DNA of 64,000 nt from Escherichia phage A4, in sequence record ON286972, one strand, 5' to 3'. This document shows positions 43,813-64,000 of this stretch, piece after piece. The position numbers were made by a program, and so were the translations under genes. Under the pieces are notes generated by a model. It ran no database searches. It was not told the origin of the DNA and saw only the letters and a list, made by a program, of their open reading frames with translations. Each line of letters begins with the position of its first letter. Position 1 is the first letter of the stretch.

Positions 43813-43816
43813 AAAA

Positions 43817-47889: not shown

Positions 47890-47916
47890 TATGTACGCAT
47901 TGTATAATAAAGAAAA

Positions 47917-47950
47917 GGATTGACTTCAGTCAGCCCTTTTTTCTATAATC
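47917..47950 (+). promoter_or_regulatory. terminator/promoter cassette
   Basis: GGATTGAC-TTCA-GTCAGCCC, TTTTTT, TATAAT, then conserved CATTTCATC. Confidence 0.55.
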
Positions 47951-47977
47951 ATTTCATCGAAACGAGAGGATGAATAC

Positions 47978-48415
47978 ATGACACGCATTAACTTAGTACA
48001 TGTTAAAGAACTTGCTGACCAACATCTGATGGCTGAATATCGTGAACTTCCACGTGTGTTTGGTGCTGTACAAAAACATGTTCAAGCACGTAAGCGTGTA
48101 CGTGATTTCAAAATTAACAGTACTTATCTGTTAGGTTCAGGTCATGTAACATTCTTCTACGACAAGTTACTATACTTACAGAAGCGTCATATTGATATTG
48201 TTAACGAATGTTTGCGTCGTGGTATGAAGATTCAAAACACTGAAGTAAACGACATTAGCGGCTTCCCTGCTGAGTTTTGTAATGACTACGTACCATCGGA
48301 GTCCGAGATTAAAACATCACGCGAGCGTTTGATTGAGAAGCTTCAGATGAAGCCTAAGTGGTATAAGTTTACTGATGTTGAGCTACCTATATATTATGTT
48401 GATATGATACAATGA
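47978..48415 (+). CDS. denV: pyrimidine-dimer DNA glycosylase / endonuclease V
   Basis: Near full-length similarity to T4 endonuclease V as recalled: [30 protein letters not shown]...KRVRDFKI......[11 protein letters not shown]. Confidence 0.9.
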
Positions 48416-48639
48416 ATGATGAAGAATTCAAAAAATATGCGATTGCGAAGCTTGATTCATACAAGTCACGCGAAACGTATAAATTTAATCCTGATAAAAC
48501 AAAAGCATCTATAAGATGGATGATTAATTCACCCAAATATACATTTGACGAAAAATATTCATGGATAGTGCAATGTAGTGATTATGAGGATTTGGTATAT
48601 AATATTAAACTGTGTTGGTATGAATACAACAATAAATGA
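48412..48639 (+). CDS. hypothetical protein (75 aa)
   Basis: ORF track; ATGA overlap. Confidence 0.45.
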
Positions 48640-48645
48640 TATAAG

Positions 48646-48679
48646 GGGTTGACTTCGGTCAGCCCTTTTTGCTATAATC
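48646..48679 (+). promoter_or_regulatory. terminator/promoter cassette
   Basis: GGGTTGAC-TTCG-GTCAGCCC, TTTTT, TATAAT, CATTTCATC. Confidence 0.6.
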
Positions 48680-48704
48680 ATTTCATCAAATTAAGAGGTG
48701 ATAC

Positions 48705-48944
48705 ATGAAACTATCTTTTATACGTTTAGCAGAATTCTTCGGTACTGATATAATTACTTTACAACAAATTGCAGACAATACTTCATTAAGTACACAAGAA
48801 GTACTTGACTTAGATGTGATAGAGTGTGATAATACTTCTATCGATTATAAAGAAGGTCTTGTCGAAAAAGATAAGATTCAGGCTAAGATTAATGGTGCTG
48901 GACGGGTTCAGTACTGGAAAGGAGTTTTAAGTCATGCCAGCTAA
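48705..48944 (+). CDS. hypothetical protein (79 aa)
   Basis: ORF track; AGAGGTGA RBS. Confidence 0.45.
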   Translation: MKLSFIRLAEFFGTDIITLQQIADNTSLSTQEVLDLDVIECDNTSIDYKEGLVEKDKIQAKINGAGRVQYWKGVLSHAS

Positions 48945-50631: not shown

Positions 50632-50637
50632 ACAAAA

Positions 50638-50671
50638 GGGTTGACTTCGGTCAGCCCTTTTTGCTATAATT
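50638..50671 (+). promoter_or_regulatory. terminator/promoter cassette
   Basis: GGGTTGAC-TTCG-GTCAGCCC, TTTTT, TATAAT, TATTTCATC. Confidence 0.6.
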
Positions 50672-50698
50672 ATTTCATCAACTGATGAGGACAACGAA

Positions 50699-51469
50699 AT
50701 GACCAGAGAAGCACGCAGCATTCAAATTCAGAAAAACTTCAACTCCATGATGGTTGCTCTTGAGTGTTTGCTCGATGATAGCAGTACTGTAAAAAGTATG
50801 GTTGTCAGCGGTGCTCCTGGTGTTGGTAAGACTTACACCCTCTCTAAACGCCTCCAGAAAGCACATGACGCGGCAGAATGGAACGTAGCTACCATCAGTG
50901 GTAAAATGACCACTCTGGCTCTGTACGAAGTTCTGTACAAGAATCGTCATAGCACCAACGTGTTAGTACTGGATGATATGGACAGCATCTTTGATTCAGA
51001 AGACGGTATGAACCTGCTCAAAGCAGTACTGGATAGTGGCAAGCGTACTGTTTCTTATATGACTAGCTCGAAGTATCTGAGCAGCAACGGTATCCCTAAC
51101 AGCTTTGATTTTAATGGTCGCATCGTATTCATTACTAACAAAGATTTAGCACTGAATGCTAAAGCTAAAACTAAAATGTCTGCTCACTATGCTGCTCTTA
51201 TGTCTCGCTCTGTATACGTTGACTTACAGATCCAGACCAAAAGCGATATCATGATTCACATTGAGAACGTGATGAACCAGACCAACATTCTGGAATCTAA
51301 GGGTATTAACAGTAATGGTAGTAAAGCAATCCTGAACTGGATGTTGAAGCACGAAGATTCACTTCGTTCACCTTCACTGCGTATGCCACTGTTGATTTCG
51401 GCAGTATATAACAACAACCCATACGATTGGGAAGAGCAATGTGAAAACTTGTTCCTGGAGAAAAATTAA
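50699..51469 (+). CDS. P-loop ATPase (AAA-like)
   Basis: Walker A GAPGVGKT, Walker B VLVLDDMD; GC-richer codon usage than neighbours. Confidence 0.7.
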   Translation: MTREARSIQIQKNFNSMMVALECLLDDSSTVKSMVVSGAPGVGKTYTLSKRLQKAHDAAEWNVATISGKMTTLALYEVLYKNRHSTNVLVLDDMDSIFDSEDGMNLLKAVLDSGKRTVSYMTSSKYLSSNGIPNSFDFNGRIVFITNKDLALNAKAKTKMSAHYAALMSRSVYVDLQIQTKSDIMIHIENVMNQTNILESKGINSNGSKAILNWMLKHEDSLRSPSLRMPLLISAVYNNNPYDWEEQCENLFLEKN

Positions 51470-51688
51470 TTGATAACACATAACATCGATAAGGTCATGT
51501 TATTATATGCATGTATTAACATGATTGTCGTTTTAGTTAAAGTTTATGGATGGTTTCATACACTTGATATTGATACTGAAAAGGAGTATAATCCTCAAGA
51601 AGCATCTCTTGGATTAAAAATTATTGTTTTAATTAGCGTAGTATCCGTATACATGGTATTACTATCAACTATGATTAAGTTCACTTAA
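51470..51688 (+). CDS. small integral membrane protein (72 aa)
   Basis: ORF track; two TM helices. Confidence 0.5.
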   Translation: MITHNIDKVMLLYACINMIVVLVKVYGWFHTLDIDTEKEYNPQEASLGLKIIVLISVVSVYMVLLSTMIKFT

Positions 51689-51698
51689 CGAGGAACAT

Positions 51699-52031
51699 AT
51701 GATTAATTTATTTTCAACTGAGGTTATGATTAAAATTACATTAGTATACATATGTCTATTCGTATACTACCACGCTCTCATCGGAATCTTGTGGTTCTTT
51801 AAGAAAGGTCGTATTCTTGAGAAATTGTACCCAGACTATATGATATTGTATACAATTGTCCAGGGTGTAGGAATAGTACTGGGAATTCTAGTGCACTTGA
51901 TATATTTGTTTGAACCACACCTTCCGTGTATTACACAATACATTGTATTCGGAACTACTATTATGTGGCTTGTAATGATGGGTGTGTATGGTCTGTATTT
52001 GTACAGGAAACGTATAGTGGGAGATTTCTAA
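51699..52031 (+). CDS. small integral membrane protein (110 aa)
   Basis: ORF track; multiple TM helices. Confidence 0.5.
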   Translation: MINLFSTEVMIKITLVYICLFVYYHALIGILWFFKKGRILEKLYPDYMILYTIVQGVGIVLGILVHLIYLFEPHLPCITQYIVFGTTIMWLVMMGVYGLYLYRKRIVGDF

Positions 52032-52384
52032 TGCAAGAGGTTATTAAATGGTTGACAACCAGTGATATTGCTAGTACACTGAACTATGTACTCATTATCT
52101 TATATCCGTTTTTGATGGTTCTAAACTTCATTGGATGGTATTTCAAACGTCCAATTTACTACAAGATTAATAATTCAGAGTACTATGAAAGTGTTGTAAT
52201 TGCAACCTCAATCACGTATACTATGGGTGCGGTTCTTACAGTCATAGGATTAGGTCAAGGTGATAATCTTAACTTTATGCTATGTACCTTTGTTATGATA
52301 TGTATTCCAACACTAATTGTAATTCTATCGAATATTGTGTGGAAAAAAATGTTATTTGCACGCAACAAAATACCGGAGGCATAA
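52031..52384 (+). CDS. small integral membrane protein (117 aa)
   Basis: Track ORF 51926..52384 trimmed to ATG 52031 after GGGAG; contains WYFKRPIYYKI. Confidence 0.5.
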   Translation: MQEVIKWLTTSDIASTLNYVLIILYPFLMVLNFIGWYFKRPIYYKINNSEYYESVVIATSITYTMGAVLTVIGLGQGDNLNFMLCTFVMICIPTLIVILSNIVWKKMLFARNKIPEA

Positions 52385-52719
52385 TGGAGTACTTTATCAG
52401 TTTACTACCGTGGTACTTGAAAGTAAGTACAATTTACTACATCATTTCCGCTGGGTTTTATTTCTTGATGTGGTTCTTTAAACGTCCAATCAGTGAATTC
52501 ATCGATAATCATATGATGAGTTTTAAACTTCACTGCTGGTTTTGGTCATCGTCAGTGATGCCATTCATCCATTACGGAATTATCAGTACTGGTAAACGTT
52601 CTAATGGTGAAATCATTTCCTTGGGTTTTTACTGGATATCGACTATTGTTTACATTGGTGTGCTTTTGTATCCATTTGTAGTTAAACTACGAAACTCTAT
52701 CCCAGATCACAGGAAATAA
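52384..52719 (+). CDS. small integral membrane protein (111 aa), paralog of preceding gene
   Basis: Track ORF 52282..52719 trimmed to ATG 52384 after GGAGG; contains WFFKRPISEFI. Confidence 0.5.
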   Translation: MEYFISLLPWYLKVSTIYYIISAGFYFLMWFFKRPISEFIDNHMMSFKLHCWFWSSSVMPFIHYGIISTGKRSNGEIISLGFYWISTIVYIGVLLYPFVVKLRNSIPDHRK

Positions 52720-52720
52720 T

Positions 52721-53041
52721 ATGAAGATTCAATTTATTCTTTTCACAGTAAGTGCATTCTACTTTTGGGTTTGCTGGATTGGTTTTCTCTTTGCACTAAA
52801 ACCATTTGACTTCTATGCAAAGCAGTGTAAAAATGCTGCTGTTGGTAATGTAGCTTTTACATTGCTTAGTACATTATGGGTAGTACTGATTATATTCAAT
52901 CCACCTGATAATGATTTGGAAATGTCATTGTGTACATTATTTGCAGGACTGTGTGTATTCGCAGCATTCTGTAGTTATATTGGAAAGTTATGTTCTTTGG
53001 TATCAAATTTCCATCGTAAACAAAAAGATAAGAGGGTATAA
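52721..53041 (+). CDS. small integral membrane protein (106 aa)
   Basis: ORF track. Confidence 0.5.
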   Translation: MKIQFILFTVSAFYFWVCWIGFLFALKPFDFYAKQCKNAAVGNVAFTLLSTLWVVLIIFNPPDNDLEMSLCTLFAGLCVFAAFCSYIGKLCSLVSNFHRKQKDKRV

Positions 53042-53424
53042 TGTACACAACAATATATGTTATTCTTAATATCCTAAGTGCATGTCTAACAATAGGTGCA
53101 TTAATATACATTGGAAAGTTCTTTTGTGTAAAGTTCGTCGAAGATGTGTATGAGGATATTGAATCCGACTACGAATCTAAGTGCTTCTTCCATGTTGGAT
53201 ATATCATTTGCTTAGTAACCACTATCTTCACATGGATTGTATACGTATTCGGGATTGGAATCACTTCAATTGGTGAACCAGTACTGTGCATTATTGGATT
53301 AGTGTTTTCTTCAATATTCGGGTTATTGTTCATGATTATTCTTATGTATAATTTAATCTGTACTGCTATTGTTCCTTTCTTTTATGAAATTCACAATAAC
53401 ATTAAACGTAAGAAACGAGGTTAA
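53041..53424 (+). CDS. small integral membrane protein (127 aa)
   Basis: ORF track. Confidence 0.5.
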   Translation: MYTTIYVILNILSACLTIGALIYIGKFFCVKFVEDVYEDIESDYESKCFFHVGYIICLVTTIFTWIVYVFGIGITSIGEPVLCIIGLVFSSIFGLLFMIILMYNLICTAIVPFFYEIHNNIKRKKRG

Positions 53425-53426
53425 TT

Positions 53427-53780
53427 ATGTTTTCTCCTGCTGGACAAGTTATATTCATGGTATGTACACTGGTATTCTTTATGTTGTCTGTACTATTTGT
53501 GATGAAATTCTTTCACATGAAACCATTCAGTACTTGGTATGATAATATTGTGTACTATATTGGTAATGCTATAACACTCTTTTCAGTTGCATACTATTTC
53601 GGTTATTTTGCAATGCTATTTGGGTTATTACTTGAAGCTCGTGCATTGCTTGTAGCTGGTATGGTGGCAGATTTAATGTGTCTAACACTAGCTTGTATTG
53701 GATTTACTGTATGTATGTCGTTAACCATTTTTGACAAATTATGTAAACTACACAAACGTTTAGGTGAGAGGATGAAATAA
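53427..53780 (+). CDS. small integral membrane protein (117 aa)
   Basis: ORF track. Confidence 0.5.
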   Translation: MFSPAGQVIFMVCTLVFFMLSVLFVMKFFHMKPFSTWYDNIVYYIGNAITLFSVAYYFGYFAMLFGLLLEARALLVAGMVADLMCLTLACIGFTVCMSLTIFDKLCKLHKRLGERMK

Positions 53781-54163
53781 TGACTTACCGTGATTACTTT
53801 TGTATTTTTGAAATTGCAGTATTCGCTTTAGGTTCAGTCTGGTTACTTCTATACTACTTCTGTATTAATCCAGTATTCAATTGGGTTCGTCGTGCTGAAC
53901 AAAGTAGTGCTGGACAAATAGCAGTTGTTATGGGTATGACATATTATATGTTCGCCGTGGCTTCTGTTGTTATTGAAGTAATATTTGGTGGCATGAATGG
54001 TGATGATGGGGCAACGTTCTATGGATTCGTAACATTCTTTAGTGTGCTGATTCCGTGTGGTGCTCTTATTATTACTGCGTTCTATTGGCTATATCGTGGT
54101 GTTAAGAAGCTGGAATCAATTCACGTAGATATGCGTTCAAAACGAATGGGGATTGACAAATAA
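53780..54163 (+). CDS. small integral membrane protein (127 aa)
   Basis: ORF track. Confidence 0.5.
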   Translation: MTYRDYFCIFEIAVFALGSVWLLLYYFCINPVFNWVRRAEQSSAGQIAVVMGMTYYMFAVASVVIEVIFGGMNGDDGATFYGFVTFFSVLIPCGALIITAFYWLYRGVKKLESIHVDMRSKRMGIDK

Positions 54164-54714
54164 TGAAACGAAGTTCTAATGTCATTCGCGAACGATTTCG
54201 TAAAGTAAAAACTATTAAGTACGGGACTATTGCTCTTGTACTTAGTAGTACTTTTATTATGACAGGATGTGAACGCTCTGAAGATATTTCTGTATATCAG
54301 AATGTGGACCAATGTAAAAGAAGTGGTAGCAATCCGGTACAGTGTGAAGATGATTATAAAAAAGCACTAACTGAATCGGAAAAGGTAGCACCAAAATATA
54401 GTTCACAAAGTGATTGCTCTAGTGATTTTGGTAATCAGTGTCAACAGCATAGCTCTGGATTCTTTTGGATGCCAATTATGAGTGGATTCCATAGTAGTGG
54501 TAATGGGTTTGCTAGTCAACCACTATACAACTCTAAAGGGAACTACTATGATGCTGGTGGTAACTCCTACGGTAGCAGTACTGCAAAAGGTACAACACGT
54601 ACTGTATCAAGTTCCGCATTAGCTCCAAAACCTCCTACAACGACCACAATCACCCGCAATGGGTTTGGGTCTTCAGTAGCCAGAAGTGCCGCTCACACGA
54701 GTTCTGGTGGATAA
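54163..54714 (+). CDS. lipoprotein (lipobox IMTGC), Ser/Gly/Thr-rich C-terminus
   Basis: N-terminus MKRSSNVIRERFRKVKTIKYGTIALVLSSTFIMTGC; ATGA overlap with upstream gene. Confidence 0.6.
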   Translation: MKRSSNVIRERFRKVKTIKYGTIALVLSSTFIMTGCERSEDISVYQNVDQCKRSGSNPVQCEDDYKKALTESEKVAPKYSSQSDCSSDFGNQCQQHSSGFFWMPIMSGFHSSGNGFASQPLYNSKGNYYDAGGNSYGSSTAKGTTRTVSSSALAPKPPTTTTITRNGFGSSVARSAAHTSSGG

Positions 54715-54715: not shown

Positions 54716-54745
54716 AAAAAAGCCCACATTAAGTGGGCTTTTTGT
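54716..54745. terminator. bidirectional intrinsic terminator between convergent gene blocks
   Basis: AGCCCAC-ATTAA-GTGGGCT hairpin flanked by AAAAA and TTTTGTT. Confidence 0.6.
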
Positions 54746-56769
54746 TATTTGTGTTTTATGTGTAAAGTGTCTAATATTGTATTGAACAATGATTTAGCAG
54801 AAATCATGATTACTTGATCAAAATCTTTAGTATAAGAAATATTAGCAGTACTGGAAGAATCTTTCACCTCATCCGGTAATGCATCAAACTCTTCTTTTTC
54901 CATAATCTTTTCAAGTTCTTCACGAGAAATGGCTTTTACGTTTTCAATAGTCCTTAGTTGTATATTATAATCTTTATAATACGAAACTAAGTTCGTTGCG
55001 TATGAACCATCTTTAGATGCTGTTCCAGTAAAATCATAACATCCTGTATCAGTACTAACCCAATCGATTTTCCCTGAACTACCACTATATACACCTTTGT
55101 TGAACTTAATGTTAACAACATCACCAATAGTTTTCAATATACCACCTTTACATTCATTAAATGCGTTTAATTGATAACTTGTAGTCATATAGAATTTCGG
55201 TTCTAATGTAACAGTATCACCTACAGTTGCTTTCATATCAGAAACACTTAAGAACAATTCATTAAATCCTTTTGAATAAGTCTTGGTAATTGTTGTTCCA
55301 TCCCTGTTAGTTACTGTGTATTCTAAGTCCAATTCACAAATACTATTCAATGATAAGTAAGGGATATCAAATTTATCAGTACTAGCATCATAAGGACATC
55401 TTGAGGATGGTAGTATACCAGTAGGGTTTGGTACGTATTGAACTTTTGTTAACTCATACCCGCTTGCATTCGCTGGTGTAACTGTAATAGACGGTGTAGA
55501 TATTCCTTTCATTCCACAGAAGTATATGTTATCTGGAAAATCATTTATTACGAAGTCAGTGACAGGAATATCATAAGTATCTTTATCAGTCCAATTAAGA
55601 ACAACATTAGAACTGGTTGGATCAACAATATGTTCACTAGAACCACAGAAATATACTGATTTGGTATTAGTAATCATTAGTAATGTTTTGGATGATGAGT
55701 TCAATTCAAGAACATCTTTCACTTCAAGACCAGATGGTAATGTCAATGGTAACTTCGTAAATGATGTTAAATCTTGTTCATCTTTAACACCACTAGTCCC
55801 CGCCGGAAACTTACCTGAACCATAGAAAACACCTTTATTCGTCATGAAATACATGAACGGGGTTGATGTTCCTTTGTCAAATAGTTGAATGTCATCACAT
55901 GTTAAACCATCAGGTAAATCCACTTTAGATGGAGTTCTATAAACACCAGGCTTAATACCACCTTCACCATTACTTACATCACCTAGTACATATAAATCTT
56001 TACCTAGTTTCAAGAACATTGATTTATTTTTAGCACACAAGAATGTATCATATGATTTATCATCAATTGGTAGCTTGGTATATTCGGTGTATGTAGGCAT
56101 TGAATCATCAATCCACGAACTATCACCACTAATGTAAATGTGATTGTTTCTGTCAATATAATATGAATACACATCAGTACTGTTCATATATAAAGCATTT
56201 AGTGCATTTGTTTTCACTAAGTGATTGAACTTAAGAACTTGTTTTCCATCGTACTTATGGGAGTTGACACCAATATCACCATTTAGGCTACTACCAATTG
56301 AATATATATGACCACGTGGTAATAGAACTTGAACACCACTTTTGGTTAAATTATATTTGGAGTGCAAGAGATCGTTATATACAACTCTAACTTTCTTAAA
56401 GATATCAGTACATTCAATCCACGATTTAGATGGTGTACCATCCATTCCTATTATTGCCGGATCACCATAATAATAAGCTTTATTTTCATATGATATTTTA
56501 AAAGATGATTTACCATCTTTTGTATTAGCACTGAAGTACACATCTTTACTATCTTTAATTGGATAAGTACTATTCTCTACAAAAGTATTATATGAGATAT
56601 CGTTGTTAGCACTATTAAGAACAAAAGAAGTAGATGTACTATTGGACTTATAGACTGCTACGGAAGATGTATCACTGAAATCAATTTTAGTGAACGTATC
56701 TTTGTATGTTTCGTTTAATAATCCTACATAAAAAACATCAGTGCCATCCATCAGTAACGAATATAGCAT
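54745..56769 (-). CDS. RCC1-like repeat protein, possibly the C-terminal part of a frameshifted gene continuing from 56738..57682
   Basis: ORF track; no RBS before its ATG; frame opens 29 nt upstream of the stop of the preceding minus-strand ORF. Confidence 0.55.
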   Translation of the reverse strand: MLYSLLMDGTDVFYVGLLNETYKDTFTKIDFSDTSSVAVYKSNSTSTSFVLNSANNDISYNTFVENSTYPIKDSKDVYFSANTKDGKSSFKISYENKAYYYGDPAIIGMDGTPSKSWIECTDIFKKVRVVYNDLLHSKYNLTKSGVQVLLPRGHIYSIGSSLNGDIGVNSHKYDGKQVLKFNHLVKTNALNALYMNSTDVYSYYIDRNNHIYISGDSSWIDDSMPTYTEYTKLPIDDKSYDTFLCAKNKSMFLKLGKDLYVLGDVSNGEGGIKPGVYRTPSKVDLPDGLTCDDIQLFDKGTSTPFMYFMTNKGVFYGSGKFPAGTSGVKDEQDLTSFTKLPLTLPSGLEVKDVLELNSSSKTLLMITNTKSVYFCGSSEHIVDPTSSNVVLNWTDKDTYDIPVTDFVINDFPDNIYFCGMKGISTPSITVTPANASGYELTKVQYVPNPTGILPSSRCPYDASTDKFDIPYLSLNSICELDLEYTVTNRDGTTITKTYSKGFNELFLSVSDMKATVGDTVTLEPKFYMTTSYQLNAFNECKGGILKTIGDVVNIKFNKGVYSGSSGKIDWVSTDTGCYDFTGTASKDGSYATNLVSYYKDYNIQLRTIENVKAISREELEKIMEKEEFDALPDEVKDSSSTANISYTKDFDQVIMISAKSLFNTILDTLHIKHK

Positions 56770-57682
56770 TTCTATTATTACATAAAGAAGTAATATTTTT
56801 TACTACTTTATTTGAATTATAGTTTGGTAACTTCTTTAATCCACGAACAAAATTATCACAAATAATACCAGTACCATAGAAGTTATAATCTTTATCACAG
56901 TATATAAATGCTGTATCATATGGTGAAGTACTTAAATTCTTATAGAATGGGAATGGAGTGAATGTGAATTGTAGAACCTTACGCAATTCCCCTACTGTCT
57001 CTGTTGGGAATTGTCTGTTTTTATTATTACCAATAAAAACAACTCTATCTGTTAGGAATGTGTACATAATTCCATATGGTTTTACGTACAAATCATTATA
57101 TCCCAATGATAATTTAGTTGGTGATGTTAGTGGTCCTGAGTTTATTTTGGTTTGATTAATTGAAAACTCATTAGAATTATAACCAGCCCCATATGTATTA
57201 CCATTAGTACTTAAATAATATACAGTAGCTTCCCCTGCTCCAAGAAAAGTCTTTACATCAGTTGCTAACGTTTTTTGGAAAGTTGGATAAAATTTATTAT
57301 ATGTTCCCGTTCCCATCATCAGTTCACCATTGCGGTTATGACCACGAGCATATAGAATACCTTTGTCTGTATCTAAGAAGAACATACCATTATATGTTTT
57401 GTAAATCTTACCTTTTGTAATATCGAAATTGGAAAAATCATCACTAATATCAATGAATATTGTCTCAAGATTATCTTCAAGGGAGTTTAGAGATTTACCA
57501 CAATACCATACTGAGTTATCTTTTTTAACAGCAACACAACCACACGGACTGGCATCAAAATATGTTACATCGGAAAGAACCAGAGATAAGTTCTTTGTAC
57601 TGCAATAGTTATCCATTGCATATAAATCGGAATCTTTAAGTATATATACGGAATTCCCAACCGCTTTAATCGAATTTATCAT
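56738..57682 (-). CDS. RCC1-like repeat protein (N-terminal part or separate gene)
   Basis: Track ORF 56738..57772 trimmed to ATG 57682 (MINSIK...) after GAGGA RBS; G.N..GELMMGTG-type repeats. Confidence 0.55.
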   Translation of the reverse strand: MINSIKAVGNSVYILKDSDLYAMDNYCSTKNLSLVLSDVTYFDASPCGCVAVKKDNSVWYCGKSLNSLEDNLETIFIDISDDFSNFDITKGKIYKTYNGMFFLDTDKGILYARGHNRNGELMMGTGTYNKFYPTFQKTLATDVKTFLGAGEATVYYLSTNGNTYGAGYNSNEFSINQTKINSGPLTSPTKLSLGYNDLYVKPYGIMYTFLTDRVVFIGNNKNRQFPTETVGELRKVLQFTFTPFPFYKNLSTSPYDTAFIYCDKDYNFYGTGIICDNFVRGLKKLPNYNSNKVVKNITSLCNNRNAIFVTDGWH

Positions 57683-57901
57683 GTTTATATCCTCATAAAT
57701 TGATACCAATTCTAATGTATTTACCCACTTAAAGTACAAAAAATGATCAATTAAATGGGGAATCTTTAACAAATGAATTCATGATGTACTTGATGAATTG
57801 CCCATACCAACGGATTCCTCAGTCCCAGCATACCACATGGTATTATCGAACTTTTTATCATTGTAGTATCATAACCACACCAAACATCATCAACATTAGT
57901 A

Positions 57902-59254
57902 TTACAACAATTGTATTTCTGTGAGTGTTTGATATGTTGTACCGTTGTACACACCTCTCCAATATACCCTACCTTCAGTACTAACCACTAATAATCCATA
58001 TGTTGTAAACCCAAGAGTACCACCAACATACATAGCATCTTTAATTCGAATACCAATGTCTTCATATGTAAATGAAGCGACTGCTCCCGCTTGCCACGAA
58101 GGACTAGCGTAGTAATCACTATAAACACCATGTGCTTTATATATTGATGTTGTTCCTGGTTCAAAAATTACAGTTCCACAGTAGTTCATTCGTATTTTAG
58201 TACTGGATGAAGTCGGTACATTTATACCTATGCCATCTTTTATCCCTGTAGTTAGGACGTTAAAACCACCCGCCACACGGTTGACGTCATTCTCACCGAT
58301 TAAAAACATACCAACGTTGTAGCCCATATAATATACACTGCTACTGCCATTCCAGAAAGAAAAACCACCACCATTACCACAGCGATATAGTTGTGAATTT
58401 GAGCAGTACATCATACCTTCGTTTGTCGCATCAAATTCATCTGCTGTTCCTATTGTAGCTACAGTAGTCCACGTTTTAATCACTTGGTTTGTACTAGCTG
58501 GTGTTTGTATACCATATCGTATATTATATCCCTTACCAACGATTGTACCATCTTCTAATTTAGCATAAAGTACAGGTCTATTACCAACAAAATACATATT
58601 ATTGTGTGACATGTCTATTGTGCATCTTAATGAAACTACTTTTTGTGTCAATTGATTATCTTTAGTAAAAGAAGTAAAGTAGTAATCCGATGTTGAGTTG
58701 TTTATTAAACCTTGTATTGACAATCCCATATACCAGATTTCACCATTGCTGTTTAATGCTGCCAAAATACAACTATATTTTGAAGTGTATGCTGGTGATG
58801 TTGTTGAAGTTGCTGGTCCTTTATCATATCCACCACAGAATACCATCTCCACAACTTCACCTACGTTCGAAAAATAAGAAGATACATTGATAAAACCATT
58901 TGTTATAAAAGGTGCTGTATTCATACTTGAATGTGTGAATATCCCATTTGCATATACACCACAAAAATGATATGAACCATCATTATCTTGGACTATTATT
59001 CCATTTGATAGTAACCAAAAATTGTTTACATTTTTTCTTACTAATTCAACTCCTGCACCATTGGTTGGTGTTATACCAAAAGAAACATATTTTGTTTGAC
59101 CAATACCATATAAATTTCCATTAGTTGCTAGTATTGCACCAAACCAGTTCCCACCACCATTCCTATCATGACCCATACCAATGGAGTCAAATTTCTTCAC
59201 AGTAGGGACTTCAACTTTATTCCCATACTCTAGCATTCTAACAAAAGGTAACAT
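57902..59254 (-). CDS. RCC1-like beta-propeller repeat protein (putative receptor-binding or tail-fibre-like), paralog E
   Basis: Track ORF 57902..59320 trimmed to ATG 59254 (MLPFVRMLEYGN) after AGGAGG; track N-extension reads through the terminator hairpin. Confidence 0.65.
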   Translation of the reverse strand: MLPFVRMLEYGNKVEVPTVKKFDSIGMGHDRNGGGNWFGAILATNGNLYGIGQTKYVSFGITPTNGAGVELVRKNVNNFWLLSNGIIVQDNDGSYHFCGVYANGIFTHSSMNTAPFITNGFINVSSYFSNVGEVVEMVFCGGYDKGPATSTTSPAYTSKYSCILAALNSNGEIWYMGLSIQGLINNSTSDYYFTSFTKDNQLTQKVVSLRCTIDMSHNNMYFVGNRPVLYAKLEDGTIVGKGYNIRYGIQTPASTNQVIKTWTTVATIGTADEFDATNEGMMYCSNSQLYRCGNGGGFSFWNGSSSVYYMGYNVGMFLIGENDVNRVAGGFNVLTTGIKDGIGINVPTSSSTKIRMNYCGTVIFEPGTTSIYKAHGVYSDYYASPSWQAGAVASFTYEDIGIRIKDAMYVGGTLGFTTYGLLVVSTEGRVYWRGVYNGTTYQTLTEIQLL

Positions 59255-59318
59255 ATATCCTCCTTTATTCATTATATTATATTTAATCAAAAAAGAAAAG
59301 CCAGTACAGAGTACTGGC
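59255..59318 (-). promoter_or_regulatory. repeated intergenic cassette: terminator hairpin, TATAAT box, AGGAGG RBS
   Basis: Minus-strand read: GCCAGTACTCTGTACTGGC, T-tract, GATTAAATATAATATAATGAATAAAGGAGG, ATG; near-identical at four sites. Confidence 0.5.
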
Positions 59319-59329
59319 ATTTAAAATAA

Positions 59330-60505
59330 TCAAAATGTAGGAAGTTTGAATTCTCTCATAACAGATGAACTGCTTGCAGATACATTATCTGGTGATTTCC
59401 CTGCGTAGTATAATTTATTATCAATGAACATATACAATGTTGCATCATTTCCTGCTACAAGTGATTCACTTTTCTTAAATTTAACACCACTAGGTAAAAT
59501 TGCTTCAACAAATGAACCTGATTCTCTTGTAGTATTATTTGCCAATTGACCATTGTTATTATAACCAGTACTATAAATTTTACCTGAACTATAATATACG
59601 AGTCCACGAGTACTAGTGTTTTCTATTCGAATGAATTCACTATCATCTGGGACTGTAGTTGATAGAACTGGGTTTAACTTATAAGCAGATGATACATTAT
59701 TATTACCCAATTGACCATAACCTTGAAAGCCTAGTGTATACATAGGACATGATTCTGGTGTGCCTTTTGTTATAATACCAATATAATTCACACTACAAAA
59801 AATGTCTATTGCTTCTGTAATAGGTGTACCCTTATATTGAACCCAAGGGAATACATACGATTGTTGCTTACCATTTCCCAAAGTACCGGAAGTTGTTGTC
59901 CCAGTACGCCACATTGTATCATCAAGTTTAATAATCCAGTTAGCTGTCGTTATCGATGAACAGAATTTTTTAACATTATCCACTAAAAATGTAAATTGAT
60001 TATAATATGATGCAGTGTTTATACCAAACTTAGCACCAGTATTATCACCTAACAAATATAAACTATTATCTGTACCTAAAATCAAAGCATAATCATAACC
60101 CACGTATATATCTTTAATTCTTGAAATTCCAAATTGTGTAAAATAGCTTGTACATTCTGTGAATGTTGTTATATTATTGGTTGTATTATTACCTAGCCAT
60201 TTATCTAAACCACTATAAAAGAATCTATCATCATTTGTGCGTATTAGACAAAAAGCGTTCATTGTACTGCACCAAAAATCTTTAACATTGCTATATATTT
60301 TTGTCCATTCAGTTACTGCATTAGTATGACCTAAACCAAAAATTCCACCATTCTGAAGACCAATAGCCCATATTGAACCATTTTTATCAAGCATCATTGT
60401 ACATGTATGTGAATAACCACCCGATGGTGTAACTAATTTAACAAAATTGGGAATATATGGTAAAACTTTATTTCCATAATCCAACATTCTAACAAAAGGT
60501 AACAT
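59330..60505 (-). CDS. RCC1-like beta-propeller repeat protein, paralog D
   Basis: Trimmed to ATG 60505 (MLPFVRMLDYGN); repeats such as GIFGLGHTNAVTEW, GYGQLGNNNVSSAY. Confidence 0.65.
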   Translation of the reverse strand: MLPFVRMLDYGNKVLPYIPNFVKLVTPSGGYSHTCTMMLDKNGSIWAIGLQNGGIFGLGHTNAVTEWTKIYSNVKDFWCSTMNAFCLIRTNDDRFFYSGLDKWLGNNTTNNITTFTECTSYFTQFGISRIKDIYVGYDYALILGTDNSLYLLGDNTGAKFGINTASYYNQFTFLVDNVKKFCSSITTANWIIKLDDTMWRTGTTTSGTLGNGKQQSYVFPWVQYKGTPITEAIDIFCSVNYIGIITKGTPESCPMYTLGFQGYGQLGNNNVSSAYKLNPVLSTTVPDDSEFIRIENTSTRGLVYYSSGKIYSTGYNNNGQLANNTTRESGSFVEAILPSGVKFKKSESLVAGNDATLYMFIDNKLYYAGKSPDNVSASSSSVMREFKLPTF

Positions 60506-60569
60506 AATTCCTCCTTTATTCATTATACTATATTTAATCAAAAAAGAAATGCCAGCATCAAGTACTGGC
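60506..60569 (-). promoter_or_regulatory. repeated intergenic cassette (terminator, TATAAT, RBS)
   Basis: Hairpin GCCAGTACTTGATGCTGGC, T-tract, TATAGTATAATGAATAAAGGAGG. Confidence 0.5.
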
Positions 60570-60576
60570 ATTATTG

Positions 60577-61767
60577 TTATAGTTGTCTTGGTGTATCAAG
60601 TACATATCTATTTGTACTAGGACCACCATCATCATACGTTCCGGTTGAATATATATTTTTCATATCAGCAGTTAGAAAAGTACGATACGAACCGCGATAT
60701 ATTTTTATTTTATCATACATAGAATATGATATTTCTGCTGGCATTGGACATATAGTAAATCTACCAATAGTAACATTAGAACCAACACCCAACGAACCAG
60801 CATAACTACTCGCATTTAAACCAGTTGCATATACACCAGTACTCGTAACTAGTATACTAGATTGTGTTGGGTATCCTGTATGAATTGAATACAAAGTTCC
60901 AGTTGGTAATGTCGTACTATTGCTCCCTAATACAGCAAGTGCCGAACTGGTTGTGGTATTGTTACCCCATGCACCATTACTCGCTAAACCACCAACTAGA
61001 AACTGACGTGCACCAGTACTTGGATTCTCAACCAAAGCACTGACTGCACCACTTGAGCATCCAGTGTATTGTAACGTTTTTGTGTATGTTGTACTTGGTT
61101 TATATAAAGTATATTCATTAAATGGTGTCCATGTGGTACTGGTACTTATACCTGACGTACCACCACCAATATATAAATTATTTTGTGTATCAAAAAACAT
61201 TACACAGTTATTTGTTGACTGTATTTGTGCAATATCAACATTAGGCGTGACAGCTTTTACAAATGATCCATCTGTTATTTGTTGAGTACTACCAGTACCA
61301 TCAGCGAATTGTCTAGCCCCACTCCAACCAGTACTCCATATTGTATTATTATCCATTAATACCGTAAACCACGTAGTACCTCCATACATCTGTTTAATTG
61401 AAGTACTTGAACTTTGCGTGTACAAATTTTCAATATATTGGTTATAACTTAAAAACGTAGTAGTACTAGTTGGTAAACCAATATGATCACCATATCCACA
61501 ATAAAAATAATTTGAGTCATTATCTTGTACTAACAAAGTTCCTTGTGACACCCAGAAATCTTTAACATTTTCTCTAATTAAGGTCCATGACTTTACTGCA
61601 TTACTATTTCCTATACCAAACTTCCCAAAACTATTATTTCCACGTGCGTATAGTTGACCATCCGTATAAAGAACGACAACATCTAAATCAGTTGGTGTTA
61701 TTTTCTTAATTTGAATAGGGACTGGTGTTATATTCCCATAATCAAACATTCTAACAAAAGGTAACAT
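60577..61767 (-). CDS. RCC1-like beta-propeller repeat protein, paralog C
   Basis: ORF track; starts MLPFVRMFDYGN; GKFGIGNSNAVKSW repeats. Confidence 0.65.
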   Translation of the reverse strand: MLPFVRMFDYGNITPVPIQIKKITPTDLDVVVLYTDGQLYARGNNSFGKFGIGNSNAVKSWTLIRENVKDFWVSQGTLLVQDNDSNYFYCGYGDHIGLPTSTTTFLSYNQYIENLYTQSSSTSIKQMYGGTTWFTVLMDNNTIWSTGWSGARQFADGTGSTQQITDGSFVKAVTPNVDIAQIQSTNNCVMFFDTQNNLYIGGGTSGISTSTTWTPFNEYTLYKPSTTYTKTLQYTGCSSGAVSALVENPSTGARQFLVGGLASNGAWGNNTTTSSALAVLGSNSTTLPTGTLYSIHTGYPTQSSILVTSTGVYATGLNASSYAGSLGVGSNVTIGRFTICPMPAEISYSMYDKIKIYRGSYRTFLTADMKNIYSTGTYDDGGPSTNRYVLDTPRQL

Positions 61768-61832
61768 ATTTCCCTCCTTTATTCATTATACTATATTTAA
61801 TCAAAAAAGAAAAGCCAGTATCAAGTACTGGC
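61768..61832 (-). promoter_or_regulatory. repeated intergenic cassette (terminator, TATAAT, RBS)
   Basis: Hairpin GCCAGTACTTGATACTGGC, T-tract, TATAGTATAATGAATAAAGGAGGG. Confidence 0.5.
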
Positions 61833-61838
61833 CTATAT

Positions 61839-63008
61839 TTAAACTGGTGAATCTAATACAAATTCTAAACTACTAATGCCACCATATGTGACATTTGTCC
61901 CTGTGCTATATACAAAATTACCATCAGTTATATAAGTTCGGTTATACCCACCTGCCATCTGCGACTTACTATAATCAAACCCATCAGGAACGATTGCTTT
62001 GGTATATACTAATGCATTATTAGATGTACCAATACCTAACATACCAGCTCCTGAAGATTTATTGTAGCCGCAACAATATATACCATCTGTTGTAGCAATA
62101 ACTTGGTTATAATATGAAGTAATGTTAGCAATGCTTACTACATCACCGGGTGGCATTAGTGAAGCAGTTTGAACCTCAAATGCTCTATAATCACTGAGAG
62201 AACCATTTATCCCATCTGCTTGTGCACCAAATATTCTCGAACCGCCATTTGCGATGATGGTTTTACCAGTGGGATCAGTACCAATTGCCATTGCCATTGA
62301 AGTACTATTCTCCATATAGTACTTGATATTAATTGTATTTCTTAAGCTGGTAGGAGCACCATAATATATAGTATATAACTTACCTCCTGAACTTGTAACT
62401 GCATTTACTCTTCCTGTATAAAATAGCCATCCTTGGTTTGTAACATAACCGTGCATTAAATTACTTGCAAACAATTTAACAGGTAATTGATCTGCTGCGG
62501 TCGGAACAGTACTTTTGACGAATTTTCTAGCAACATTGTTAGTTGTTGTCCCATCACCCAACTGACCATCACCCCCTGCTCCAGTACTCCATATTGTTTG
62601 GTCTGTTAGTAATACACTTGTAGTCTGATAACTAACTGCTATATCTAATATTGGTAATGTTAACGTATCGAATGTTGGCATAGCAGAAGTCCATATTGAT
62701 ACTGCTGCCCCTGGCATACCAACAGTTGTTGAACTTCCACTGTACCATATTTCATCATTGCTTTTCTTAATAACTATCGACGTGGCTCCCATCCAAAAAT
62801 CTTGAACATCAGAAGTGCTAAAAGTCCATGTAGTAACAATATTTTTGTGACCTAAACCCAAAAGACCATTTGTATTCTCACCACGCACATATAAATCACC
62901 ACTGTTTGTTAAAACAGCAACATTATAGTTGTTAGCTAGTATTTTTTTAATATTTGGTTTAGCAGGTGCAATATTCCCATACTCTAACATTCTTACAAAA
63001 GGTAACAT
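61839..63008 (-). CDS. RCC1-like beta-propeller repeat protein, paralog B
   Basis: Track ORF 61839..63170 trimmed to ATG 63008 (MLPFVRMLEYGN); GLLGLGHKNIVTTW, GQLGDGTTTNN repeats. Confidence 0.65.
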   Translation of the reverse strand: MLPFVRMLEYGNIAPAKPNIKKILANNYNVAVLTNSGDLYVRGENTNGLLGLGHKNIVTTWTFSTSDVQDFWMGATSIVIKKSNDEIWYSGSSTTVGMPGAAVSIWTSAMPTFDTLTLPILDIAVSYQTTSVLLTDQTIWSTGAGGDGQLGDGTTTNNVARKFVKSTVPTAADQLPVKLFASNLMHGYVTNQGWLFYTGRVNAVTSSGGKLYTIYYGAPTSLRNTINIKYYMENSTSMAMAIGTDPTGKTIIANGGSRIFGAQADGINGSLSDYRAFEVQTASLMPPGDVVSIANITSYYNQVIATTDGIYCCGYNKSSGAGMLGIGTSNNALVYTKAIVPDGFDYSKSQMAGGYNRTYITDGNFVYSTGTNVTYGGISSLEFVLDSPV

Positions 63009-63072
63009 AATTCCTCCTTTATTCATTATATTATATTTAATCCAAATAAGAAAGCCAGTATCAAGTACTGGC
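63009..63072 (-). promoter_or_regulatory. repeated intergenic cassette (terminator, TATAAT, RBS)
   Basis: Hairpin GCCAGTACTTGATACTGGC, T-tract, TATAATATAATGAATAAAGGAGG. Confidence 0.5.
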
Positions 63073-63078
63073 ATTGTG

Positions 63079-64000
63079 TTATTTCGGTAAATCAATTTTA
63101 GTAAAGACTGCAACATCCTCGCTTGCACCGGGAATGGCGTAATACGTTCCAGTACTATATACATCTCCATTTTTGGTTAATATTGAAGTCAAACCATCAC
63201 TAAAAAGAACATCCCTAATCTCACTAACTTCAACGGGTAATTGTAAATTTGTAGCACTATATATAGCACCAGTTTGAGAATTGTTTAATCCCAAACCACG
63301 GTTCGCCCCAACACCCTTCTGATATGTACTGGTAATTACCATTTGTGTAGCAGTATTTAATGCAGGTGAATTCGTCATAAACAACGGAGAACTATTAGGC
63401 AAAGTACTTACAGGAACTGCACGGAATGTAGTCGTACCTGAACTAAGAAAGTTTGGAGTTTGACCACATACGAAATATGATGTACCATTATAGTAATTAA
63501 ATGCATTACCACCAATCGCTGCATCGATTACACCAGAACTACGTAATCCCCAAGTGTTAATTTGTGTTTGGTCCCCTGTACCATGCTGCCCACTGCTATT
63601 CCATCCAGAACTATATAGCTTATTATCTAATGTAATATACATACTATCATTTGCATTAGTCATTACTTTACGCACGTTAGTAGCACATTGAGTTAATGTG
63701 TAAATCGATGATGAGCCAATACCTAAAGAACCACGATATCCATTATCTCCTGCACCATAGAGTACTGAACTAGTGCTAAGTACAAATATTAAACCATTTG
63801 TACATACAATATTAGCAATTTCACTCACTGGTATAGCATTGGTAAACCAATTAGTCCTTTCAACTAATATAGTACTGTAAGAAGTAGTTGTAGAAGATGA
63901 GAACCAGTACGTTTCACCCGATGTCCATATCGTATTATCATTTTTAATAATAACAAGTGTACGACCACCCACGAAAAAATTAGAAACATCTGAACTTACT
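63079..64000 (-). CDS. RCC1-like repeat protein, paralog A, 5'-truncated by window edge
   Basis: Frame stays open upstream of the track start (GTG 63972) to the window end; GYRGSLGIGSSS, GQHGTGDQTQINTW repeats. Confidence 0.55.
   Translation of the reverse strand, partial: VSSDVSNFFVGGRTLVIIKNDNTIWTSGETYWFSSSTTTSYSTILVERTNWFTNAIPVSEIANIVCTNGLIFVLSTSSVLYGAGDNGYRGSLGIGSSSIYTLTQCATNVRKVMTNANDSMYITLDNKLYSSGWNSSGQHGTGDQTQINTWGLRSSGVIDAAIGGNAFNYYNGTSYFVCGQTPNFLSSGTTTFRAVPVSTLPNSSPLFMTNSPALNTATQMVITSTYQKGVGANRGLGLNNSQTGAIYSATNLQLPVEVSEIRDVLFSDGLTSILTKNGDVYSTGTYYAIPGASEDVAVFTKIDLPK

What the first reader, a model, noticed from the sequence alone, without database searches (positions are those of the whole stretch)
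54745..64000. Convergent tandem array of at least seven RCC1-like repeat proteins with an identical N-terminal 12-mer
The 3' 9 kb on the minus strand encodes successive 315-674 aa proteins full of G-x-L/F-G-x-G-type repeats typical of RCC1-like beta-propeller blades (GLLGLGHKNIVTTW, GKFGIGNSNAVKSW, GQLGDGTTTNN). Four of them (starts 63008, 61767, 60505, 59254) begin with the same MLPFVRM[LF][ED]YGN peptide and then diverge. A conserved N-terminal anchor with divergent distal domains is the usual architecture of multiplexed receptor-binding or tail-fibre proteins, but RCC1-type propellers are not the usual fold for them.
Basis: partly seen in the sequence, partly recalled or inferred. Interest (0 to 1): 0.8.

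Follow-up and report, generated by a model that had tools for sequence, protein, structure and literature searches.

The report
Tagged RCC1-propeller virion protein array
The end of this jumbo coliphage window holds an already-described tandem array of RCC1-like beta-propeller genes whose relatives are found in virus particles, and their shared N-terminal peptide proves to be a portable tag used across this phage group, most likely to dock varied binding domains onto the virion.

Summary
The window comes from an Asteriusvirus-like (PBECO4/121Q/phAPEC6 group) jumbo coliphage. On the minus strand, four complete RCC1-like genes start at 63008, 61767, 60505 and 59254 with MLPFVRM[LF][ED]YGN. A fifth gene runs off the window end. 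The 344-aa and 674-aa ORFs are two halves of one 977-aa gene, broken here by a 4-nt duplication.

An AlphaFold model of one paralog is a seven-bladed RCC1/UVR8-type propeller, with the tag outside the fold.

The array is not new. It is annotated as "regulator of chromosome condensation" in relatives and has been discussed in papers from 2017 and 2020. Tagged or RCC1-like proteins were detected by virion mass spectrometry in phAPEC6, JP4, GAP32, CBB and W70.

What I add:
- The tag (M-[LI]-P-F-x-R-[MI]-h-x-Y-G-N) is selected at the protein level.
- It occurs in about 100 genes of RaK2-like jumbo phages.
- It is fused to at least four unrelated folds: RCC1, Kelch, ConA-like lectin and a Gly-rich domain.
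- It is retained in mature CBB virion proteins.

Best reading (about 0.5): a docking peptide that displays interchangeable binding heads on the virion. Main rival: a T4-style capsid-targeting signal for internal proteins. The function has not been tested.

The parts
63079..64000 (-). 3' part (at least 297 aa) of an RCC1-like gene truncated by the window end. It is the most conserved cassette, 96-97% identical in phAPEC6, G17, PBECO4 and 121Q.
63054..63072 (-). Terminator-like hairpin GCCAGTACTTGATACTGGC plus T-run; 5' end of the conserved inter-cassette repeat.
63013..63042 (-). Promoter-like A/T box plus Shine-Dalgarno (GATTAAATATAATATAATGAATAAAGGAGG).
61839..63008 (-). Tagged RCC1-like gene, 389 aa (tag codons 62973-63008). 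Predicted seven-bladed propeller. 93% identical to G17_00073.
61812..61834 (-). Terminator-like hairpin of the next cassette junction.
61773..61802 (-). Promoter-like box plus Shine-Dalgarno.
60577..61767 (-). Tagged RCC1-like gene, 396 aa (tag 61732-61767). 85-93% identical in four Asteriusviruses.
60548..60572 (-). Terminator-like hairpin.
60510..60539 (-). Promoter-like box plus Shine-Dalgarno.
59330..60505 (-). Tagged RCC1-like gene, 391 aa (tag 60470-60505). 94.6% identical to its PBECO4 counterpart (tagged ORF at L003 15263; PBECO4's annotation starts that gene six codons later). At most 27% identical to anything in phAPEC6, G17 or 121Q.
59300..59318 (-). Terminator-like hairpin.
59259..59288 (-). 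Promoter-like box plus Shine-Dalgarno.
57902..59254 (-). Tagged, very divergent RCC1-like gene, 450 aa (tag 59219-59254). No Pfam hit; phrog_4219 E 2e-16.
57773..57900 (-). Remnant (MWYAGTEESVGMGNSSSTS*) of a 307-aa RCC1-like gene that is present in relative L027 and deleted in the window.
54745..57682 (-). Untagged 977-aa gene with RCC1-like matches in both halves (starts MINSIK). In the window it is split into ORFs of 314/344 aa and 674 aa by a 4-nt duplication near 56743-56750.
54717..54743 (.). Bidirectional terminator-like hairpin between the array and the convergent lipoprotein gene.

Best explanation
The array is a set of interchangeable virion-protein cassettes.

Anatomy of each cassette:
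- its own terminator hairpin;
- an A/T-rich promoter-like box with a TAAATA core, as in T4-type late promoters;
- a Shine-Dalgarno sequence;
- an ORF with three parts: a 12-aa N-terminal tag (M-L-P-F-x-R-M-h-x-Y-G-N), a short Pro-containing linker, and a monomeric seven-bladed RCC1-like propeller.

Proposed mechanism:
- The tag is a docking peptide. It attaches each head domain to a common acceptor site on the assembled particle.
- The divergent propellers then serve as accessory binding heads for host-surface ligands. In related phages the heads are Kelch propellers, ConA-like lectins or Gly-rich domains.
- The repertoire turns over by duplication, divergence, deletion and recombination at the conserved junctions.

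Shown here or in published data:
- the fold (predicted model);
- tag conservation with synonymous codon variation;
- tag portability across four folds;
- virion presence of relatives (published MS);
- tag retention in mature virion protein (published MS peptides);
- cassette presence/absence mosaic.

Inferred only:
- the docking role of the tag;
- external location;
- ligand binding and effect on host range;
- late timing of expression.
For: Fold:
- The AF2 model is a closed RCC1/UVR8-type propeller. Residues 1-12 lie outside it as a low-confidence helix.

The tag is conserved far above the rest of the protein:
- In 35 paralogs the commonest residue is shared by 73% of sequences over residues 1-20, against 25-42% elsewhere.
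- Window paralogs are only 24-33% identical outside the tag.

Selection acts on the protein, not the DNA:
- In 56 tagged genes from Asteriusvirus, GAP32, Salmonella phage Munch, Yersinia phage Yen9-04 and Xanthomonas phage XaC1, M1, P3 and Y10 are invariant.
- Codons still vary: Y10 is TAC 29 / TAT 27, and G11 uses four codons.
- Operonic genes that lack the hairpin/promoter cassette still carry the tag.

The tag is portable:
- Of 26 short tagged proteins, 10 are Laminin_G_3 (ConA-like lectin), 6 are Kelch, and 1 is Gly_rich_2; two further identical ~245-aa proteins (phAPEC6 and G17) have the same glycine-rich sequence but no Pfam hit.
- An IMG/VR scan with the degenerate tag pattern finds it only on phage contigs of 348-378 kb, plus one of 109 kb.

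Virion association:
- phAPEC6 gp003, 005, 006, 007, 009, 010, 549 and 551.
- JP4_577, 581 and 582.
- GAP32 gp001.
- CBB_536, 537, 548, 549, 551, 552 and 553, all tagged.

The tag is retained in the virion:
- CBB virion peptides LLQYGNK (residues 7-13 of CBB_553) and YANVIVEYATK (residues 10-20 of CBB_548).

Precedents:
- The first 29 aa of KP32 gp38 are an experimentally required docking peptide for virion incorporation (PMC13352976).
- RaK2 tailspikes share that peptide class.
- RCC1-like propellers occur behind a T7-tail-fibre N-terminal domain in phages PollyC and Littlefix.

Composition:
- pI is 5.7-8.0, so these are not basic DNA binders.

Cassette mosaic:
- Individual cassettes are present or absent independently among relatives.
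Against: - No experiment places any of these proteins on the outside of a particle or shows binding to any ligand.
- The acceptor site is unidentified.
- The genes lie far from the tail and baseplate module, among small early-type genes.
- A 12-15-aa tag is much shorter than usual RBP anchor domains.
- The heads are predicted to be monomeric, whereas known RBPs are mostly trimers.
- MS signal in the Asteriusviruses is weak: 1-5 peptides in phAPEC6 and about 1 in JP4.
- phAPEC6 has an inner body of unknown composition, and its authors tentatively linked it to these proteins.
- The promoter class is only a resemblance. The motif is not found elsewhere in the window.
Confidence: 0.5

Rival explanations
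1. Internal head proteins. The tag is a capsid-targeting signal analogous to the T4 internal-protein CTS. It would load diverse proteins into the prohead, to be ejected with the DNA as anti-defence or host-takeover effectors, or as inner-body components.
For: - From my own knowledge, not tested here: T4 IPI, IPII and IPIII share a 10-aa N-terminal CTS and are otherwise unrelated, and their loci are hyperplastic.
- The tag here has the same position and length and sits on at least four unrelated folds.
- These phages have T4-like gp20, gp21 and gp23 head genes.
- The locus is variable and lies away from the tail genes.
- phAPEC6 has an inner body of unknown composition.
- Kelch and RCC1 are classic protein-binding folds.
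Against: - Tag residues are present in peptides from mature CBB virions, whereas the T4 CTS is removed by gp21.
- The tag has no conserved Glu or [LI]-x-E site. Position 9 is K, N, D, T, R or Q.
- pI is 5.7-8.0, not basic.
- ConA-like lectin and Gly-rich domains and RCC1 propellers occur in tail-fibre contexts.
- phAPEC6 sequence coverage (3-17%) is below that of the 12-copy portal (21%), which argues against a bulk inner-body role.
Confidence: 0.2
2. Surface decoration without a receptor function. The tagged proteins would be cement, decoration or appendage ("hair") subunits that stabilise the large particle or change its diffusion and adherence non-specifically.
For: - phAPEC6 and CBB carry unassigned hairs and decoration densities on capsid and tail.
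- Four of the six CBB structural proteins that GAP32 lacks are tagged: CBB_536, 537, 551 and 552.
Against: - Fast divergence and presence/absence turnover of cassettes is atypical for cement proteins.
- GAP32, not reported as hairy, also has a tagged protein detected in the virion (gp001) and another annotated as virion structural (gp002).
- Hairs about 119 nm long are hard to build from globular proteins of 24-43 kDa.
Confidence: 0.15
3. DNA or chromosome condensation proteins, as the database annotation says.
For: Only the domain name, plus the speculation in the phAPEC6 and W70 papers.
Against: - pI is near neutral.
- The same tag and locus carry lectin, Kelch and Gly-rich proteins.
- From my own knowledge: RCC1-like domains are generic interaction scaffolds, and most members, such as UVR8 and RPGR, do not bind chromatin.
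- MS abundance is low.
Confidence: 0.05
4. The shared 12-mer is a by-product of DNA-level homogenisation of a regulatory cassette (terminator, promoter, RBS) that spills into the first codons, not a functional peptide.
For: The repeat is 109 nt, covers about 66 non-coding bases and is 86-89% identical in three of the four copies (65% in the 61727-61835 copy as aligned without gaps).
Against: - The peptide is kept in operonic genes that have unrelated upstream DNA.
- It is kept across several genera of RaK2-like phages with synonymous codon differences.
Confidence: 0.03

Closest known systems
RCC1-like ('regulator of chromosome condensation' / 'DNA condensation protein') gene arrays of RaK2-like jumbo phages: PBECO4 gp286-296, 121Q 234-248, phAPEC6 gp001-010/549/551 (PHROG 4219)
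   Same: - Same family: all window ORFs hit phrog_4219.
- Same genome position and orientation next to a DUF1190 lipoprotein gene and an array of small membrane-protein genes.
- 85-97% identity for several cassettes.
- Same N-terminal tag.
   Different: - This phage has its own cassette set: a 450-aa paralog seen in few relatives, and a 977-aa untagged gene with RCC1-like matches in both halves that is absent from 50,697 phage records.
- That gene carries a frameshift, and a neighbouring gene has been deleted.
Branched receptor-binding-protein systems that use a 'conserved peptide' docking on a T4gp10-like branching domain (Klebsiella phage KP32 gp37/gp38; RaK2 gp526-530)
   Same: - A short N-terminal peptide is shared by otherwise unrelated virion proteins encoded in tandem.
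- In KP32, deleting the peptide abolishes incorporation, and the peptide can carry a foreign head domain.
- RaK2, a member of the same jumbo-phage group, uses that peptide on an array of tailspikes near one end of its linear genome record.
   Different: - The peptide is unrelated: MLPFxRMxxYGN versus MLDNFNQPKGS.
- It is shorter, about 12-15 aa versus 29 aa.
- The heads are small, presumably monomeric propellers or lectins, not trimeric beta-helix depolymerases.
- No branching-domain partner has been identified and no genetics exist.
T4 internal proteins IPI/IPII/IPIII with the capsid targeting sequence (from my own knowledge)
   Same: An N-terminal peptide of about 10 aa is shared by unrelated proteins in hyperplastic loci of a T4-related myovirus, and the proteins are present in virions.
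   Different: - Here the tag is retained in mature virion protein.
- It lacks a conserved Glu cleavage site.
- The proteins are large, non-basic binding folds.
Eukaryotic RCC1-like domain proteins (RCC1, UVR8, RPGR, HERC2)
   Same: Seven-bladed propeller fold with TM 0.6-0.77; RCC1 repeat signatures.
   Different: - Only 13-17% identity.
- No evidence for GEF activity or chromatin binding.
- The context is a bacteriophage virion.
Tail fibres with an RCC1-like distal domain in Pseudomonas podophages PollyC and Littlefix (predicted structures in BFVD)
   Same: An RCC1-like propeller is used as the non-anchor part of a protein that carries a T7-tail-fibre N-terminal domain.
   Different: The anchor there is a full T7 gp17-type domain within the same long protein (867-1365 aa), not a 12-aa tag. 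The evidence is annotation plus prediction only.

Membership tests
RCC1 repeat / RCC1-like domain (Pfam PF00415, PF13540, PF25390) | Repeat matches above the Pfam gathering score | tested here: met
   The 389-aa ORF scores RCC1_2 30.7 (cut-off 22) and RCC1 26.6 (cut-off 21.7). The 391-aa ORF scores RCC1 41.4 and RCC1_2 28.4. The seventh ORF scores RCC1_2 29.3. Not met for the 396-aa ORF (18.9, below 22), the 450-aa ORF (no hit) or the 344- and 674-aa ORFs (only sub-threshold PF25390).
RCC1 repeat / RCC1-like domain | Seven-bladed beta-propeller fold | tested here: met
   AF2 model of the 389-aa paralog: pLDDT 83.5, pTM 0.85. Foldseek hits to UVR8 4dnu (TM 0.77), RPGR, HERC2 and RCC1 with E 1e-16 to 1e-21. 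Modelled for one paralog only.
RCC1 repeat / RCC1-like domain | Guanine-nucleotide-exchange or chromatin-binding activity | not testable with these tools
   No biochemical data. pI of 5.7-8.0 gives no support for DNA binding.
PHROG 4219 (phage 'regulator of chromosome condensation') | Significant profile match | tested here: met
   All seven ORFs match, E 1.2e-14 to 4.4e-114.
Conserved-peptide / branching-domain RBP systems (KP32 type) | Short N-terminal peptide shared by otherwise unrelated virion proteins | tested here: met
   for the tag and the folds; for virion MS.
Conserved-peptide / branching-domain RBP systems (KP32 type) | Peptide homologous to the KP32gp38/RaK2 peptide (M..N[FL].QPKGS) | tested here: not met
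   The tag is MLPFxRMxxYGN, with no resemblance to the KP32/RaK2 peptide.
Conserved-peptide / branching-domain RBP systems (KP32 type) | Partner protein with a T4gp10-like branching domain, and peptide needed for incorporation | not tested
   No partner was searched for or identified. This needs genetics or structural work.
T4-type capsid targeting sequence / internal proteins | N-terminal peptide of about 10 aa shared by unrelated packaged proteins | tested here: met
T4-type capsid targeting sequence / internal proteins | Removal of the peptide by the prohead protease at a conserved [LI]-x-E site | tested here: not met
   No conserved Glu in or after the tag. Tag-derived peptides LLQYGNK and YANVIVEYATK are found in CBB virions.
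T4-type capsid targeting sequence / internal proteins | Location inside the capsid | not testable with these tools
   No localisation data exist.
T4-type promoter/stem-loop shuffling cassettes (PeSL) | Conserved stem-loop plus promoter unit flanking variable genes | tested here: inconclusive
   A hairpin plus A/T box flanks four cassettes. There is no sigma-70-type -35/-10 arrangement, and many tagged genes in relatives lack the unit.

The most novel reading that the evidence does not exclude
The MLPFxRMxxYGN peptide is a general 'virion address label' of RaK2-like jumbo phages. It would let any small globular binding domain (RCC1 or Kelch propeller, ConA-like lectin, Gly-rich domain) be plugged as a monomer onto a common acceptor on the particle. 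That would be a plug-and-display host-recognition or adhesion system distinct from trimeric fibre and spike RBPs. It may also underlie the unexplained 'hairy' or decorated surfaces of these phages.
Probability: 0.3. Interest if true: 0.75.

Novelty: new member of a known kind. Interest (0 to 1): 0.45.

Why it matters
RCC1-like "DNA condensation" proteins have been found in virions of four phage genera, yet they still carry an annotation taken from a eukaryotic domain name and have no assigned role.

A 12-aa tag that is shared with lectin, Kelch and Gly-rich proteins, and retained in the particle, turns this into a testable hypothesis:
- delete or transplant the tag and check incorporation by MS;
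- locate the heads by cryo-EM;
- test recombinant heads for glycan or protein binding.

If the tag is a docking peptide, it would explain how these 350-kb phages diversify surface-binding repertoires. It would also give an engineering handle comparable to the KP32 conserved peptide.

If it is instead a capsid-targeting signal, it would define an ejected effector repertoire for a phage group with no known one.

Tried and rejected
- AF2 of the intact 977-aa gene with a 3-sequence alignment failed (pLDDT 31.8). Its tandem-RCC1 and C-terminal-domain architecture therefore rests on PHROG and Pfam hits only.
- tblastn of the 674-aa ORF against 50,697 phage records found nothing.
- A PDB sequence search gave only eukaryotic RCC1-family chains and no phage structure.
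- I looked for the promoter-like core elsewhere in the window to assign a temporal class. It occurs only at the four cassettes, and sigma-70-like sites are not enriched, so timing is unresolved.
- I considered that "hairs equal RCC1 proteins". The hairy phage CBB has no RCC1 homologue but does have other tagged proteins, so the simple form is rejected and the tagged-protein form stays open.
- I considered phage-specific co-evolution of tag position 9 (E/D in this window). I rejected it because PBECO4 and G17 each carry several different residues at position 9 (K, N, R in both; also Q and D in PBECO4) within one genome.
- The phAPEC6 supplements are not held, so N-terminal peptide coverage could not be checked there.
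- Literature hits for 'RCC1' in the prasinovirus and RcGTA papers were strain or locus names and are irrelevant.
- A text search for 'MLPF' plus 'phage' found no description of the tag.

Full report
**Source and context**

Megablast of 54000-64000 hits 36 phage records, all Escherichia or Salmonella jumbo phages of 310-384 kb (PBECO4, 121Q, phAPEC6, G17 and others). No record covers more than 40% of the query. The flanking 40000-54700 is likewise only 87-91% identical over 30-47%. The window is therefore from a divergent Asteriusvirus-like phage. GC skew flips at about 54 kb, where plus-strand genes meet the minus-strand array. A bidirectional terminator-like hairpin lies at 54717-54743.

**Check of the observation**

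- All seven ORFs match phrog_4219, "regulator of chromosome condensation".
- Pfam RCC1 or RCC1_2 repeats pass the curated cut-offs in three ORFs. Weaker RCC1-like-domain hits occur in six.
- PDB sequence hits are RPGR, UVR8, HERC and RCC1-repeat proteins.
- An AlphaFold2 model of the 389-aa paralog, built on 35 paralogs and orthologs (alignment A3), has pLDDT 83.5 and pTM 0.85.
- The model superposes on UVR8 (TM 0.77), RPGR, HERC2 and RCC1.
- In the model, the C-terminal strand (380-385) most likely pairs with the first blade to close the ring (read from the strand order, not inspected). Residues 4-11 form a low-confidence helix outside the propeller.

Three corrections follow.

1. The 344-aa and 674-aa ORFs are one gene.
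 - A 99%-identical protein of 977 aa (P0023) exists in a metagenome contig.
 - Its sequence reads ...NAIFVTDGTDVFYVG... straight across the junction.
 - The window has ACTGATGGATGGCAC where the relative has ACTGATGGCAC. That is a 4-nt duplication causing a frameshift.
 - The gene starts MINSIK at 57682, has no tag, and has no match in 50,697 phage records.
2. The window lacks a 307-aa RCC1-like gene that the relative has between the 450-aa and 977-aa genes. Only a 19-codon remnant is left.
3. The last ORF is open to the window end, so the array continues beyond 64000. Relatives have 10-12 such genes or more.

**The repeat at DNA level**

The four tagged genes are each preceded by the same 109-nt unit. 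It consists of:
- a hairpin GCCAGTACTTGATACTGGC plus a T-run, scored as terminator-like;
- the box GATTAAATATA(A/G)TATAATGAATAAAGGAGG;
- the ATG and about 14 codons.

Each element occurs four times in the window and nowhere else, against 0-0.03 expected by chance. The TAAATA core resembles the ATAAATA motif that the CBB authors predicted before structural genes, and the T4 late promoter. That is a resemblance only.

**Is the peptide or the DNA conserved?**

In phAPEC6, G17 and PBECO4 nearly every gene of the array begins MLPF[AGVSP]R[MI]..Y[GA]N. This includes genes with unrelated upstream DNA.

The same tag, with lineage-specific variants, heads the RCC1-like genes of:
- Cronobacter phage GAP32;
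- Salmonella phage Munch (15 tagged genes);
- Yersinia phage fHe-Yen9-04;
- Xanthomonas phage XaC1.

Over 56 genes, M1, P3 and Y10 are invariant, and F4, R6, G11 and N12 nearly so. Codons still vary: TAC 29 versus TAT 27 at Y10, four Gly codons, and three codons each for Pro3 and Arg6. Selection therefore acts on the peptide. Conservation in the first 20 residues is 0.73, against 0.25-0.42 in the rest.

**Portability of the tag**

A degenerate DNA pattern for the tag, scanned over IMG/VR, hit 15 loci, all on phage contigs of 348-378 kb plus one of 109 kb. In all I collected 104 tagged ORFs.

Of 26 tagged proteins shorter than 330 aa:
- 10 are ConA-like lectin (Laminin_G_3);
- 6 are Kelch propellers;
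- 1 is Gly_rich_2, and two further identical ~245-aa proteins (phAPEC6 7325-8056, G17_00077) have the same glycine-rich sequence with no Pfam hit;
- 1 is a short RCC1-like protein.

The tag is thus a module fused to at least four unrelated folds. The locus is syntenic across genera: small membrane-protein paralogs, then a DUF1190 lipoprotein, then the convergent tagged array.

**Published evidence on location**

- phAPEC6 encodes "eleven" RCC1-like proteins. Eight were found in virions by ESI-MS/MS with 1-5 peptides and 3-17% coverage. The authors speculated on DNA ordering or the inner body.
- JP4 virions contain at least three tagged RCC1-like proteins.
- GAP32 gp001 was MS-detected. The CBB paper also lists the multicopy genes in 121Q and PBECO4.
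- In CBB, which has no RCC1 homologue, the syntenic genes CBB_548-554 plus CBB_536/537 all carry the tag. Seven of these nine were detected in CsCl-purified virions with 9.5-50.7% coverage.
- The CBB peptide list contains LLQYGNK (tag residues 7-13 of CBB_553) and YANVIVEYATK (residues 10-20 of CBB_548). The tag is therefore present in the mature particle.
- Three tandem phrog_4219 proteins of the unrelated 137-kb phage W70 are also virion components. They share a different N-terminal peptide, MLEM[ML]NL.

**Interpretation**

The evidence supports a family of virion proteins built as tag plus linker plus variable binding head, with fast cassette turnover.
- The seventh gene and the 396-aa gene are present in all four compared Asteriusviruses.
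- The 389-aa gene is present only in G17 and phAPEC6.
- The 391-aa gene is present only in PBECO4.
- The 450-aa gene is in none of the four.
- The 977-aa gene is in no phage record.

I favour a docking-peptide mechanism with external display, for four reasons.
1. The tag is retained in the virion.
2. Lectin-type, Kelch and RCC1 heads are binding modules. ConA-like lectins are noted on fibres and other virion components of jumbo phages.
3. RCC1-like propellers follow a T7-tail-fibre N-terminal domain in phages PollyC and Littlefix.
4. A short N-terminal docking peptide is experimentally established in KP32 gp38 and recurs on RaK2 tailspikes.

The main rival is a T4-like capsid-targeting signal. 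It fits the tag's length and position and the diversity of cargo. It is weakened by tag retention, the lack of a conserved Glu, the non-basic pI and the low MS coverage relative to the portal. The "DNA condensation" label has no support beyond the domain name. The DNA-homogenisation explanation is contradicted.

**Novelty**

The array, its RCC1 nature and its virion association are already in GenBank annotations, PHROGs and papers from 2017-2026. This window adds new cassettes and a pseudogenised member. The generality, portability and virion retention of the tag were not found in the searchable literature. They are the part worth following up.

Noticed in passing
window 56738-56770: A 4-nt tandem duplication (ACTGATGGATGGCAC versus ACTGATGGCAC in a 99%-identical relative) splits a 977-aa gene into the 344-aa and 674-aa ORFs. 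It is either a real pseudogenisation or an assembly error.
   Followed up: yes
window 57773-57900: Remnant (MWYAGTEESVGMGNSSSTS then a stop) of a 307-aa RCC1-like gene. The gene is intact in relative L027 (2939-3862) and resembles PBECO4 gp296, so this is a deletion scar inside the array.
   Followed up: partly
window 51699-54714 (+ strand): About seven tandem small multi-pass membrane-protein paralogs (106-152 aa), followed by a 183-aa lipoprotein with a DUF1190/YgiB-like domain (lipobox ...MTGC). This block lies convergent to the tagged array in CBB, Yersinia phage Yen9-04 and the Asteriusviruses, which suggests a functional link of unknown kind.
   Followed up: partly
window 16019-19088: Cluster of six tRNA genes: Ser-tga, Gly-tcc, Ser-gct, Met-cat, Asn-gtt and Thr-tgt.
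   Followed up: no
window 25626-26783 (- strand): The only ORF of at least 250 aa on the minus strand in the first 52 kb. It encodes 385 aa with a repetitive, beta-rich sequence, possibly Ig-like repeats. It is not RCC1-like and not tagged.
   Followed up: no
L001 (phAPEC6 MK817115) 2434, 3614, 6063, 7325: Complete tagged ORFs of 369, 398, 396 and 244 aa lie in stretches that the GenBank record leaves unannotated or annotates with a wrong, upstream-extended start. PBECO4 likewise has several starts mis-called around the tag.
   Followed up: partly
L010 (phage W70 OP778610) 17543-21041: The three virion-associated RCC1-like proteins of this 137-kb Vequintavirinae phage share their own N-terminal peptide, MLEM[ML]NL[GS]. 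The 'short shared N-terminus plus RCC1 propeller' layout therefore recurs with a different tag in an unrelated myovirus lineage.
   Followed up: partly
L008 (RaK2 JQ513383) 14455-25955 and L028 (KP32) 3041-3130: RaK2 tailspikes gp526, 527, 529 and 530 start with M..N[LF].QPKGS[VT]S, the same peptide class as the experimentally validated docking peptide of KP32 gp38 (MLDNFNQPKGST...). RaK2 gp531-534 share a second N-terminal class (MSLSNLS.SN...).
   Followed up: partly
L015 (CBB contig) 4804-5535: A tagged 244-aa protein (no domain assigned individually) lies outside the 330-378 kb region of CBB that holds the main tagged array, so tagged genes are not confined to one locus.
   Followed up: no
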